Shown in pieces: positions 4,720-6,649 of a stretch of DNA of 64,000 nucleotides. A model generated the notes under the pieces. That model searched no databases and had not been told where the DNA came from. It worked only from the letters and a program-made list of their open reading frames with translations. The DNA comes from the human T2T-CHM13v2.0 reference genome, Homo sapiens. The DNA lies in NCBI RefSeq assembly GCF_009914755.1, contig NC_060928.1. One strand, given 5' to 3'. Numbering within the stretch: position 1 is the first letter of the stretch; each line of letters begins with the position of its first letter. Made by a program: the position numbers and the translations under genes.

Positions 4720-5798
4720 AAACAGAAAACATTGTTCAATTCCCACCTATGAGTGAGAATATGCGGTGTTTGGTTTTTTGTTCTTGCGATAGTTTACTGA
4801 GAATGATGGTTTCCAATTTCATCCATGTCCCTACAAAGGACATGAACTCATCATTTTTTATGGCTGCATAGTATTCCATGGTGTATATGTGCCACATTTT
4901 CTTAATCCAGTCTATCATTGTTGGATCACATGGACACAGGAAGGGGAATATCACACTCTGGGGACTGTGGTGGGGTCGGGGGAGGGGGGAGGGATAGCAT
5001 TGGGAGATATACCTAATGCTAGATGACACGTTAGTGGGTGCAGCGCACCAGCATGGCACATGTATGCATATGTAACTAACCTGCACAATGTGCACATGTA
5101 CCCTAAAACTTAGAGTATAATGAAAAAAAAAAATTAAAAAAAAAAGAAAGAAAATTAAAAAGTAAAAAAAAAAAAAAAAGAAATAAATCTTCCTTTGCTA
5201 TTTCTACATAGAAAGATAAAAATCATGCAATTTCCTATGATTTTTCATCTCTCATTGGAATTAGATATCTAAATGGCCAGTTTGCTGATCTGTTGATAAT
5301 TTTACATACTAGAAGTCAGGTTTCAAGATATAGTTTTTCGAGTCAGATTAGGTTAGATGTTTTTAAGATGATGTCTTTGTCAACTTTTCCAAAATTTGGA
5401 TACATAAAATGCAAAAGGAATATGAGAGACTATTCTTAAATTATAAAAGAATGTTCGGTTACCTGCAGCAGTTTCTATGAGATTGTTTTTGTCCCAGAGC
5501 AGCCAGGAGAGAAGACAGCAATTGTGTGGTAAAATAAGACATAATTGGAATTGAGAGTCCAGATTGCTAAATTAGACTTTTTTTTTAGCTTTGTCACTAA
5601 TTTGTAATTTGACGTCTTTGACGTCATTCTATCTTCCTTGGTTTCATTCCTTGTTCTCTAAATAAAATATTAGGTTTACATAGAACACGAAGCATCCTTA
5701 GAAATTTTTATATGTTCAGCTACCACTTTTAATTTAAATAAAATGTTAGCTGTTCAAAAAGCAAAAAAAAAAAAAAAAAAAAAAAAACAGAAAACATT
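4720..5798 (+). mobile_element. L1HS pre-Ta insertion: 5'-truncated, 5'-inverted, with 3' transduction
   Basis: TSD aaacagaaaacatt at 4720-4733 and 5785-5798; inverted ORF2-end segment 4730-4925; sense 3'UTR 4924-5121 with diagnostic ACG (5028-5030) and G (5113); A-rich tail 5123-5183; unique sequence to 5762; second polyA 5763-5787. Confidence 0.93.
4736..4925 (-). pseudogene. L1 ORF2p C-terminal fragment (WIKKMWHIYTMEYYAAIKNDEFMSFVGTWMKLETIILSKLSQEQKTKHRIFSLIGGN)
   Basis: C-terminal half of ORF 4736..5095 matches the L1HS ORF2p C-terminus; non-functional fragment. Confidence 0.9.
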
Positions 5799-6649
5799 AT
5801 CTCACTGGCTTATAATTACAATAGAAGTCAGTTCTCATTGACACCAATGCCTCGAAGCCCTGGAAAAATAATAGGGTAAACAGTGAAAAGGTTGAGGAAA
5901 GAATATTTTGAAATATCTGCAGGCTAGTTCATTTCAGAAAGACAACTGGATAGTCTCATTGCAAATGCGATGTGGCCAGAAGAGAGAAGAAAGTAATGAA
6001 ATAGTTGTGAGAGATTGTGATAAGAAGTGACAGCCAGTAACAGAAATCCTCACTAGGGAGGAGGTGGAAGAAATACCAATGAGCTGAATCCAGCAGCCAG
6101 AGATCATCACTATTTTGGCAGGATTACCTCAGCCTCCCCTGACACTTCCCAGGGTCCTATTTAAGATGTTCCAACCAGCCCAGGATAGGAGCCTGTGGTT
6201 ACTGGCAGCCATGACTCCCATCAAATCCTTCTACATTACCTCCTTTAGGAGGATGCAGCATTAGTCTACTAAAATCCCACCTTGATTCTGCCCTTATAGT
6301 CCTAGAAGCTGCTCTGGGGGAAAAATAAAATTTAGAAAATTCTGCTCACCATTTCCTTCTCTTATAGAGTCTCAGTGAATATTTATACCCCCCAAAGTAT
6401 GAGATTCAAAAGTAAAAACACATTTAATTTTGCTTAACCTAGTCTGTGAAGCTAATTTAACATTGAAGTTTTTTTATTTCGATCTCAAGAACAGTCTTTT
6501 GAAAATGCTGTCTCTGCAGAGCACAGACAGGCATATCATGTAGTCACTTGTATTAATCAGAGTTGAGTGATATAAGGAGAGTTTAATAAAGGTGCTACTT
6601 GTGAAAGGGTGGGCTAAACTTTGGTAAAAGAACAAGGGAGAGTGAGGTA

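What the first reader, a model, noticed from the sequence alone, without database searches (positions are those of the whole stretch)
4720..5798. Human-specific L1 pre-Ta insertion carrying a ~580-bp 3' transduction
Seen: the 14-bp left flank aaacagaaaacatt (4720-4733, preceded by tt, giving a TT/AAAC endonuclease-like site) does not recur after the L1's own A-tail. It recurs only at 5785-5798, after about 580 bp of non-L1 sequence, an AATAAA (5737-5742) and a pure 25-nt A run starting 20 nt later. Known: this is the signature of L1 3' transduction, and ACG plus the 3' G mark the L1HS pre-Ta subfamily. Inference: 5184-5762 is foreign DNA copied from downstream of a source L1 elsewhere, so it barcodes the parent element. 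The whole ~1.06-kb block should be absent in other apes and may be polymorphic in humans. A repeat annotation would show only an L1 fragment followed by apparently unique DNA.
Basis: partly seen in the sequence, partly recalled or inferred. Interest (0 to 1): 0.8.

Follow-up and report, generated by a model that had tools for sequence, protein, structure and literature searches.

The report
Inverted L1 copy carrying chr17 DNA
This is an ordinary but well-preserved young human L1 jumping-gene insertion that dragged about 580 bases of chromosome 17 with it, recording a parent element no longer present at that chromosome 17 site in this genome.

Summary
AAACAGAAAACATT flanks a 1,051-nt insert (4734-5784) and occurs only twice in the window.

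Window 5179/5180-5762/5765 matches chr17:71,703,891-71,704,478 of the same genome (2 substitutions and 1 T-run indel in about 585 nt). That is the only other copy. On chr17 no L1 lies upstream: it is an empty site with a TT|A junction. Homology stops about 20 nt after the chr17 AATAAA, where chr4 has a pure poly(A). This is an L1 3' transduction.

Two things were missed:
- The L1 part is 5'-inverted. 4734-4925 is antisense L1, adjoining direct L1 4926-5121, with 4-nt microhomology at the target site (twin priming).
- The "own A-tail" is an inherited ~42-nt extension ending in AAAAAGT. It follows pre-Ta 3' ends at 10 loci in CHM13.

At least four of those ten carry further traced transductions. 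All 5 traced parent sites are empty in CHM13.

ACG marks it as pre-Ta. Divergence suggests roughly 1.4-3.4 My, with a wide interval. Absence from apes was not testable. No deletion allele or chr17 source L1 appears in the held part of a 1,019-genome catalogue.

It is a known kind of event and of low interest.

The parts
4720..4733 (+). 5' target-site duplication AAACAGAAAACATT. It is preceded by tt, giving TT|AAAC. Its last 4 nt, CATT, also pair with L1 RNA (AAUG) where the inverted cDNA starts.
4734..4925 (-). Inverted (antisense) L1 segment. Window 4730-4925 aligns as the reverse complement of L1 nt 5817 to 5622 in the numbering of a full-length sibling (about 6 less than published numbering), 195 of 196 identical. 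The GA at 4924-4925 is shared with the direct segment.
   Evidence: first seen against an old minus-strand L1
4926..5121 (+). Direct L1 3' end. Window 4924-5121 aligns to L1 nt 5819-6016 in sibling numbering. ACG is at 5028-5030. One private change at 5066 (A>G) against the majority of 19 other ACG copies.
5122..5163 (+). Patterned A-rich 3' extension ending in AAAAAGT, with ATTAAA at 5133 and 5154. It is shared with 9 other pre-Ta copies. G at 5122 turns the L1's own AATAAA into AATGAA (5119-5124), which is unique in CHM13.
5164..5179 (+). Pure A16. Read as the poly(A) tail of the lost chr17 source element. The last A could instead be chr17 DNA.
   Evidence: inference
5180..5762 (+). Transduced DNA copied from chr17:71,703,891-71,704,478. 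Differences: 5340 G/A, 5719 G/A, and one T fewer in the T run at about 5578-5586.
5737..5742 (+). The AATAAA that was used. Earlier AATAAA hexamers at 5182 and 5661 were read through.
5763..5784 (+). New untemplated poly(A), 19-22 nt. chr17 reads gcaaatatt here, so up to three of the A could be templated.
5785..5798 (+). 3' target-site duplication AAACAGAAAACATT.

Best explanation
One L1 target-primed reverse transcription event inserted a 1,051-nt chimeric cDNA at a TT|AAAC site on chr4.

**The template RNA.** It came from a full-length pre-Ta L1 that once sat at chr17:71,703,890|891. Transcription ran past five signals: the element's own signal, two ATTAAA in its inherited 3' extension, and two AATAAA in the chr17 flank. 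The RNA was cleaved about 20 nt after a third AATAAA, 560 nt downstream, and polyadenylated.

**The insertion.** Reverse transcription from the nicked bottom strand copied the poly(A), the chr17 flank, the source's A16 tail, the extension, and the last ~198 nt of L1. The free 3' end of the top strand (...CATT) annealed to AAUG inside the same RNA and primed a second cDNA of ~192 nt. Joining the two cDNAs gave the 5' inversion (twin priming).

**Fate of the source.** The chr17 source is absent from CHM13 and is probably lost or very rare. The chr4 copy is dead: 5'-truncated, inverted, and without ORFs.

**Shown:** the anatomy, the second locus, the empty site and the shared extension.
**Inferred:** the source's former presence on chr17, the order of the priming steps, and the loss of the source.
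For: 1. A 14-nt direct repeat bounds the whole block and is unique to these two places in the window.
2. 5179-5765 aligns to chr17 at 99.5% over 588 columns. A whole-genome search with window 5190-5760 found only the query's own chr4 locus, this chr17 locus at full length, and a 65-nt 89% hit 0.8 kb upstream on chr17.
3. The chr17 flank beyond the homology is single-copy.
4. chr17 reads ggtggttt|agaaataaatc with no L1 upstream. Homology ends at gcaaa|tatt, 20-23 nt after its AATAAA, where chr4 has pure A. The copy therefore went through a polyadenylated RNA, in the direction chr17 to chr4.
5. The inverted and direct L1 segments abut in L1 coordinates, with only nt 5818 missing. There is 4-nt microhomology with the target end and 2 nt at the internal junction.
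6. The inner tail is heterogeneous while the outer tail, of the same age, is pure A. So the inner one was templated from DNA.
7. The same extension follows pre-Ta 3' ends at 10 of the 13 places where its 21-mer occurs. The backwards control matched 4 times.
8. At least three other members (chr5, chr14, chr18:41.97) carry their own traced transductions, from chrX, chr1, chr2 and chr4:157.55 Mb. Together with chr17, all 5 of 5 traced parent sites are empty in CHM13. All five junctions open onto A. Three are directly preceded by T (chr17, chr1, chr4:157.55), and chr2 also is if its flanking A run is counted as target DNA.
9. [quoted passage not shown]
Against: - No source L1 was seen. CHM13 has an empty site on chr17.
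- The held part of Table 18 of PMC12350158 lists no mobile-element insertion with a position beginning chr17:71.70 or 71.71 Mb. It has one row each under chr17-716 and chr17-717, both Alu. It has no row whose target duplication starts like the chr17 site.
- That file is cut, and the paper's L1 source catalogue (Table 19) is not held.
- The chr17 junction is TT|AGAA, a variant of the endonuclease consensus rather than the consensus itself.
- No second offspring of the chr17 source exists in CHM13, so the source rests on this one copy.
- No outgroup was available, so the pre-insertion chr4 site is inferred only from the duplication.
Confidence: 0.93

Rival explanations
1. Template-switch chimera. 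L1 reverse transcriptase first copied the 3' end of a polyadenylated cellular transcript from chr17, then jumped onto the poly(A) end of an L1 RNA from any member of this lineage. No L1 ever sat on chr17.
For: No L1 is present at the chr17 site in CHM13 or in the held part of the 1,019-genome table. Chimeric retrocopies made by template switching are known (recalled, not looked up here).
Against: - The chr17 part begins exactly at a T|A-rich endonuclease-like junction.
- So do the other transduced pieces of the same lineage: all five junctions open onto A. Random jump points would not do this.
- The A16 and the extension sit in the order expected for read-through.
- Read-through transduction is common, at about 15-25% of L1 insertions (passages in PMC10883270, and PMC13009371).
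Confidence: 0.04
2. Two separate events: an L1 fragment and a retrocopy or DNA duplication of the chr17 segment landed side by side.
For: The block contains two A-rich tracts.
Against: - Only one pair of target-site duplications exists, and it encloses everything.
- There is no second repeat pair around either half. One search lists only short imperfect repeats.
- The chr17 piece starts directly after the inner tail, at the chr17 nick site.
Confidence: 0.01
3. The source L1 on chr17 is not lost but still segregates at low frequency in living humans. This is a variant of the main reading, not a different mechanism.
For: - The table examined is cut, and the cohort has intermediate coverage.
- The paper reports that only 24% of its L1 source elements were previously known as active (passage).
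- A pangenome preprint describes the pool of intact L1 alleles as highly undersampled (passage in PMC13192797).
Against: - No insertion row with a position beginning chr17:71.70 or 71.71 Mb, although chr17 insertion rows are held.
- The estimated age of about 1.4-3.4 My is long for a neutral or deleterious polymorphism to persist. That last point is an inference.
Confidence: 0.15

Closest known systems
L1 3' transduction ('partnered' type)
   Same: L1 3' end, then its tail, then unique DNA from another locus, ending about 20 nt after an AATAAA with a new poly(A). All of it lies inside one target-site duplication. The mechanism is as described in the introduction of PMC13009371.
   Different: Nothing in kind. 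The parent locus is an empty site in this genome.
Twin-priming 5' inversion (Ostertag and Kazazian 2001, as cited and described in PMC12016303)
   Same: The inverted 5' segment and direct 3' segment are adjacent in L1 coordinates. PMC12016303 reports 5' inversions in 18% of germline L1 (165 of 897), and finds the two cDNA ends within 20 bp in 46% (132 of 287).
   Different: Here the gap is a single nucleotide, and the priming microhomology (CATT/AAUG) can be read directly. The original 2001 paper could not be opened.
'Proxy elements' (PMC13009371, section 10)
   Same: A truncated reference L1 that carries transduced sequence from a source absent from the reference.
   Different: The two published proxies stand for sources still active in tumours. 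No activity of the chr17 source is known. This locus was not found in that paper's main text: a search for 4q21 and 17q24 gave 0 hits. Its supplement was not read.
Multigenerational transduction cascades (PMC13009371, section 10; 'TD+POLYA+TD+POLYA' rows in PMC12350158 Table 18)
   Same: Successive 3' tags separated by poly(A) runs record successive parents.
   Different: Here the first tag is a low-complexity ~42-nt A-rich extension shared by 10 copies. Its genomic origin could not be traced.
L1 pre-Ta subfamily
   Same: ACG at the diagnostic 3' UTR triplet. The element has 1 difference in 394 nt from the majority of 19 other ACG copies.
   Different: The G in AATGAA is private: 1 match in the genome.

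Membership tests
L1 insertion by target-primed reverse transcription | Target-site duplication enclosing the insert | tested here: met
   14 nt exact, with only 2 copies in the window.
L1 insertion by target-primed reverse transcription | Endonuclease-type target, TT|AAAA-like | tested here: met
   gtgatt|aaacag. The consensus itself comes from the Table 1 legend of PMC12016303.
L1 insertion by target-primed reverse transcription | 3' poly(A) abutting the 3' duplication | tested here: met
   Pure A at 5763-5784.
L1 3' transduction | Non-L1 DNA between the L1 tail and the terminal poly(A), ending 10-30 nt after a polyadenylation signal | tested here: met
   AATAAA at 5737-5742, with the A run starting at 5763.
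L1 3' transduction | The same DNA present at a second, parental locus | tested here: met
   chr17:71,703,891-71,704,478, 2 substitutions and 1 indel. It is the only other full-length copy.
L1 3' transduction | Source L1 directly upstream at the parental locus | tested here: not met
   CHM13 has an empty site. No chr17 insertion is listed in the held part of the 1,019-genome table. The literature accepts absent sources, so this lowers certainty about the source, not about the mechanism.
Twin-priming 5' inversion | 5' segment antisense and 3' segment sense, adjacent or overlapping in L1 coordinates | tested here: met
   The alignments cover L1 5817 to 5622 (antisense) and 5819 to 6016 (sense).
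Twin-priming 5' inversion | Complementarity between the target 3' overhang and the L1 RNA at the start of the inverted cDNA | tested here: met
   CATT at 4730-4733 pairs with L1 5814-5817. Four nt alone could be chance.
L1 pre-Ta subfamily | ACG at L1 5929-5931 | tested here: met
   Window 5028-5030. The 28-mer around it has 427 exact copies in CHM13.
L1 pre-Ta subfamily | G at the second 3' UTR diagnostic site (position 6015) | tested here: inconclusive
   cttaGag is present (5113), and all 19 comparison ACG copies match ours there: that column shows no variation. That this G is diagnostic is recalled, and no paper was found for it (0 papers).
Human-specific insertion | Empty orthologous site in chimpanzee, gorilla and other apes | not testable with these tools
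   No ape genome is held. Divergence of 0.34% from the parent copy is only consistent with it.
Polymorphic insertion | A deletion allele in human call sets | tested here: inconclusive
   No row with 'chr4-887' or 'chr4-8872' in the held part of PMC12350158 Table 18, although chr4 deletion rows are held. The file is cut, and the method may miss it.

The most novel reading that the evidence does not exclude
The chr4 copy may be the only surviving record of a vanished chr17q source L1.

It belongs to a small pre-Ta sub-lineage of at least 10 copies in CHM13, 4 of them full length. The 3' end of this lineage has been lengthened by a heritable ~42-nt A-rich extension carrying two ATTAAA signals.

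On this reading the extension moves the usual cleavage point to after AAAAAGT and makes termination leaky. That would explain two things:
- At least 4 of the 10 members carry further traced transductions, some two or three generations deep.
- All 5 traceable parents are absent from CHM13.

This would be a direct picture of rapid turnover of source elements.
Probability: 0.35. Interest if true: 0.4.

Novelty: new member of a known kind. Interest (0 to 1): 0.22.

Why it matters
The mechanism is textbook, so the locus teaches nothing new about how L1 works.

It has two practical uses:
- **Annotation.** About 605 bases that look unique at chr4 (5194-5798, unmasked in NCBI's file according to the hub note) are in fact a retro-copied duplicate of chr17 DNA. 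The masked L1 is two oppositely oriented pieces. Read mappers and transduction tracers can mis-assign such a 'proxy' copy.
- **L1 genealogy.** The chr17 tag and the shared extension place this copy in a small pre-Ta lineage whose parents have all disappeared from this genome. That is a modest data point on how briefly active source elements persist.

Tried and rejected
- **Papers on the second diagnostic site:** a search for pre-Ta with ACG and 6015 found 0 papers.
- **Original papers:** the twin-priming paper (PMC311219) and Szak et al. 2003 (PMC156586) are not held.
- **Other papers read in passages only:**
  - PMC9311842: 0 occurrences of chr17 or chr4 in its main text.
  - PMC13192797: 0 occurrences of chr17.
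  - PMC10883270: nothing found about either locus.
- **PMC12350158 supplement.** Cytoband names 17q24, 17q25 and 4q21 gave 0 hits. Both target-duplication strings, in both orientations, gave no relevant row; the single hit was a chr16 Alu.
- **AATGAA as the cause of read-through.** The idea was that the private G in the L1's own signal caused it. The variant is unique to this copy, and the sibling copies read through with an intact AATAAA. It is therefore not needed, and it may have arisen after insertion.
- **More offspring of the chr17 source.** The 571-nt search found only the query's own chr4 locus, the chr17 locus and a short 89% hit nearby on chr17. The downstream chr17 flank matched only itself. 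A 20-mer at the start of the flank matched only chr4 and chr17 exactly; its 3 one-mismatch hits are not next to L1.
- **Founder of the extension.** It is too low in complexity to trace. No lineage-specific substitution was found in the last 394 nt of L1.
- **An early misreading.** An apparent internal deletion in the L1 was my own misreading before the inversion was recognised.

Full report
**1. The observation**

The window is human, T2T-CHM13 chr4:88,722,001-88,786,000 (hub note; confirmed).
- The 14-mer AAACAGAAAACATT lies at 4720-4733 and again at 5785-5798.
- Allowing one mismatch on both strands, these are the only two matches in 64 kb. Dinucleotide-preserving shuffles gave a mean of 0.16, and 1 of 100 reached two.
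- The left copy is preceded by tt.
- AATAAA is at 5737-5742. A pure A run starts at 5763, 21 nt after the hexamer's last base. It runs to 5787, and its last three A belong to the right repeat.

The description is accurate.

**2. The foreign DNA has a parent**

The assembly is held, so I searched it with window 5190-5760.
- Besides the query itself, there is one full-length match, chr17:71,703,902-71,704,473 at 99%. There is also a 65-nt, 89% match 0.8 kb upstream on chr17.
- A direct alignment puts window 5179-5765 on chr17:71,703,891-71,704,478.
- The differences are two substitutions (window 5340 G against A, inside a CpG; 5719 G against A) and one T fewer in a T run.

The chr17 sequence reads ...ggtggttt|agaaataaatcttcc....
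- Upstream of the bar there is no L1.
- The nearest L1 in the 10 kb fetched is an old, unrelated minus-strand copy 4.5 kb away.
- Downstream, homology ends at gcaaa|tattgc, 20-23 nt after the chr17 AATAAA. chr4 continues with pure A.
- The next 524 nt of chr17 are single-copy.

So the chr4 copy was made from a polyadenylated RNA of the chr17 strand, and chr17 is the parent, not the copy. The T|A junction on chr17 is what an L1 endonuclease site looks like. CHM13 therefore carries the empty site of a source L1.

**3. The L1 part is inverted at its 5' end**

I used a full-length sibling (chr5, locus L027) as a ruler. Its ACG falls at 5923-5925, about 6 below published numbering. All:

| Window | L1 (sibling numbering) | Note |
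|---|---|---|
| 4730-4925 | reverse complement of 5817 to 5622 | 195 of 196 identical |
| 4924-5121 | 5819 to 6016 | sense |

- Only nt 5818 is missing between the two pieces.
- They share GA at the junction.
- The last four bases of the target duplication (CATT) are complementary to L1 5814-5817.

This is the anatomy of twin priming. The top-strand 3' end primes on an internal site of the same RNA while the bottom strand primes on the poly(A). PMC12016303 (passages) describes the model. It reports 5' inversions in 18% of germline L1 (165 of 897), with the two cDNA ends within 20 bp in 46% (132 of 287).

NCBI's mask (4728-5193, hub note) does not distinguish the two pieces either.

**4. Subfamily and age**

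- ACG (5028-5030) is the pre-Ta triplet according to passages in PMC7026601 and the Methods of PMC12350158.
- The 28-mer around it has 427 exact copies in CHM13, 201 forward and 226 reverse.
- I took the first 20 such copies listed on chr1, unselected. One, L035, was dropped because its alignment has a gap. Our copy differs from the majority base of the remaining 19 at 1 of 394 positions (window 5066).
- The G that turns the L1's own AATAAA into AATGAA (5119-5124) lies just beyond those 394 positions. It is unique in the genome.
- Two substitutions in 583 nt between daughter and parent copies give 0.34%. That is about 1.4-3.4 My at 1.25 to 0.5 x 10^-9 per site per year. The Poisson interval runs from about 0.2 to 12 My. 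The rates are recalled values.

This fits an insertion after the human-chimpanzee split but does not prove it. No ape genome could be consulted.

**5. The inner 'A-tail' is inherited**

The tract 5122-5163 reads G A11 TT A10 G AAA G AAAA TT AAAAA GT, followed by A16.
- A 36-mer from it recurs, with one mismatch, at two other loci.
- Its 21-mer core occurs 13 times in CHM13, against 4 for the backwards control.
- At 10 of those 13 places it directly follows a pre-Ta 3' end, or the L1 3' terminus of a copy cut too short to show the ACG. The other 3 are unrelated DNA.
- The ten places are this locus, chr4:133.32, chr5:13.36, chr8:105.87, chr11:90.32, chr12:19.10, chr14:45.26, chr18:41.97, chr18:70.91 and chr21:27.03 Mb.
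- In all ten, AAAAAGT is followed by an A run of different length (7 to 27), then either local flank or further foreign DNA.

So the extension is copied from parent to daughter, and the poly(A) is added after it.

It contains two ATTAAA hexamers, here at 5133 and 5154. The first ends 25 nt before the final T of AAAAAGT. That they direct cleavage there is my inference.

Four members are full length: chr5, chr8, chr11 and chr18:41.97.

**6. A transduction-prone lineage with vanished parents**

| Member | Extra transduced DNA | Parent locus |
|---|---|---|
| chr14:45.26 | 19 nt | chr1:215,263,817-835, the only other exact copy |
| chr5:13.36 | 137 nt | chrX:87,112,977, 99% |
| chr18:41.97 | 126 nt, then 240 nt, each after its own A run | chr2:84,550,200 (98%) and chr4:157,550,232 (100%) |
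| chr4:133.32 | shares the first 9 nt (TTAAACCCC) of the chr2-derived tag | not traced separately |

- None of these parent loci has an L1 upstream in CHM13. With chr17, that makes 5 of 5 empty.
- All five junctions open onto A. Three are directly preceded by T (chr17, chr1, chr4:157.55). chr2 also is, if its flanking A run is counted as target DNA. chrX is preceded by ag.

This regularity argues that real L1 insertions once sat there. It argues against random template jumps.

The chr4 element is thus a two-level record: lineage extension plus A16 from the chr17 parent's own birth, then the chr17 flank plus a new poly(A) from its own.

**7. Is either allele still segregating?**

Table 18 of PMC12350158 lists mobile-element insertions and deletions in 1,019 long-read genomes. 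Its coordinates are T2T-CHM13. A chr9 position of 142.85 Mb exceeds GRCh38 chr9 (length recalled), and Table 1 reports T2T bases.

The held copy is cut. It holds deletion rows for chr4, and insertion rows for chr1, chr10-19 and part of chr2.
- No row begins chr4-887 or chr4-8872.
- No row begins chr17-7170 or chr17-7171. There is one row each under chr17-716 and chr17-717, both Alu.
- The only row beginning chr1-21526 is an Alu.
- No target-duplication string matches either site.

So there is no sign that the chr4 insert is polymorphic, or that the chr17 or chr1 parents survive. The limits are a cut file, intermediate coverage, and a source catalogue (Table 19) that is not held.

[quoted passage not shown] Both the inversion-plus-transduction class and the multi-level class are therefore routinely catalogued.

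**8. Rivals**

- **Template-switch chimera.** This would need no chr17 L1. It does not explain why all five transduced pieces of the lineage begin at T|A-type junctions.
- **Two independent insertions.** Excluded by the single enclosing duplication.
- **DNA-level duplication from chr17.** Excluded by the poly(A) placed 20 nt after the signal.

**9. Comparison and verdict**

This is a partnered 3' transduction with a twin-primed 5' inversion, in a pre-Ta L1. It also fits what PMC13009371 calls a proxy element, and it resembles the multigenerational cascade that paper describes (section 10, read whole).

I found no mention of this locus or of the extension-marked lineage in the papers opened. 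Those were read only in passages, and locus-level supplements were mostly out of reach, so I do not claim it is unpublished.

The finding is real and correctly interpreted, but it is a known kind of event with no evident functional consequence. It lies about 77 kb upstream of ARHGAP24 and 3 kb from the nearest RefSeq enhancer element (hub note). The lineage observation adds modest interest.

Noticed in passing
10 loci in CHM13: window 5122-5163; chr4:133,320,319; chr5:13,359,370; chr8:105,867,255; chr11:90,320,323; chr12:19,095,564; chr14:45,259,976; chr18:41,972,704; chr18:70,906,933; chr21:27,028,519: A pre-Ta sub-lineage is marked by a shared A-rich 3' extension ending in AAAAAGT, with two ATTAAA hexamers. 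Four members are full length. The count is a lower bound, because only the exact 21-mer was searched.
   Followed up: partly
L008 (chr14:45.26 Mb) and L024 (chr1:215,263,817-835): The chr14 member carries a 19-nt transduction whose only other copy is on chr1, at an empty site. No L1 insertion is listed there in the held part of the 1,019-genome table.
   Followed up: partly
L030 (chr18:41.97 Mb), L060 (chr2:84,550,200), L059 (chr4:157,550,232): This full-length member carries two successive transduced pieces (126 nt from chr2, then 240 nt from chr4:157.55 Mb), each after its own A run. That makes a three-generation record, and both parent sites are empty in CHM13. The chr4:133.32 Mb member shares the first 9 nt of the chr2 tag.
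   Followed up: partly
L027 (chr5:13.36 Mb) and L067 (chrX:87,112,977): This full-length member carries a 137-nt transduction from chrX (99% identical). The parent site is empty in CHM13. Its target duplication is GAAAATCACGTCAACC.
   Followed up: partly
L032 (chr21:27.03 Mb): This lineage member has a complex structure: two antisense L1 pieces (about nt 5644 to 5338 and 5975 to 5839) ahead of a 50-nt sense 3' end. That is more than a simple twin-priming inversion.
   Followed up: no
L003 / L004 8071-8139 (chr17:71,703,070-134): A 65-69-nt stretch of the transduced DNA (window about 5265-5332) has an 88-89% copy 0.8 kb upstream on chr17, so part of the chr17 parent region is itself an old local repeat.
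   Followed up: no
window 5119-5124: The L1's own polyadenylation hexamer reads AATGAA, and the 21-mer around it is unique in CHM13. Whether the change arose in the chr17 source or after insertion on chr4 cannot be told.
   Followed up: partly
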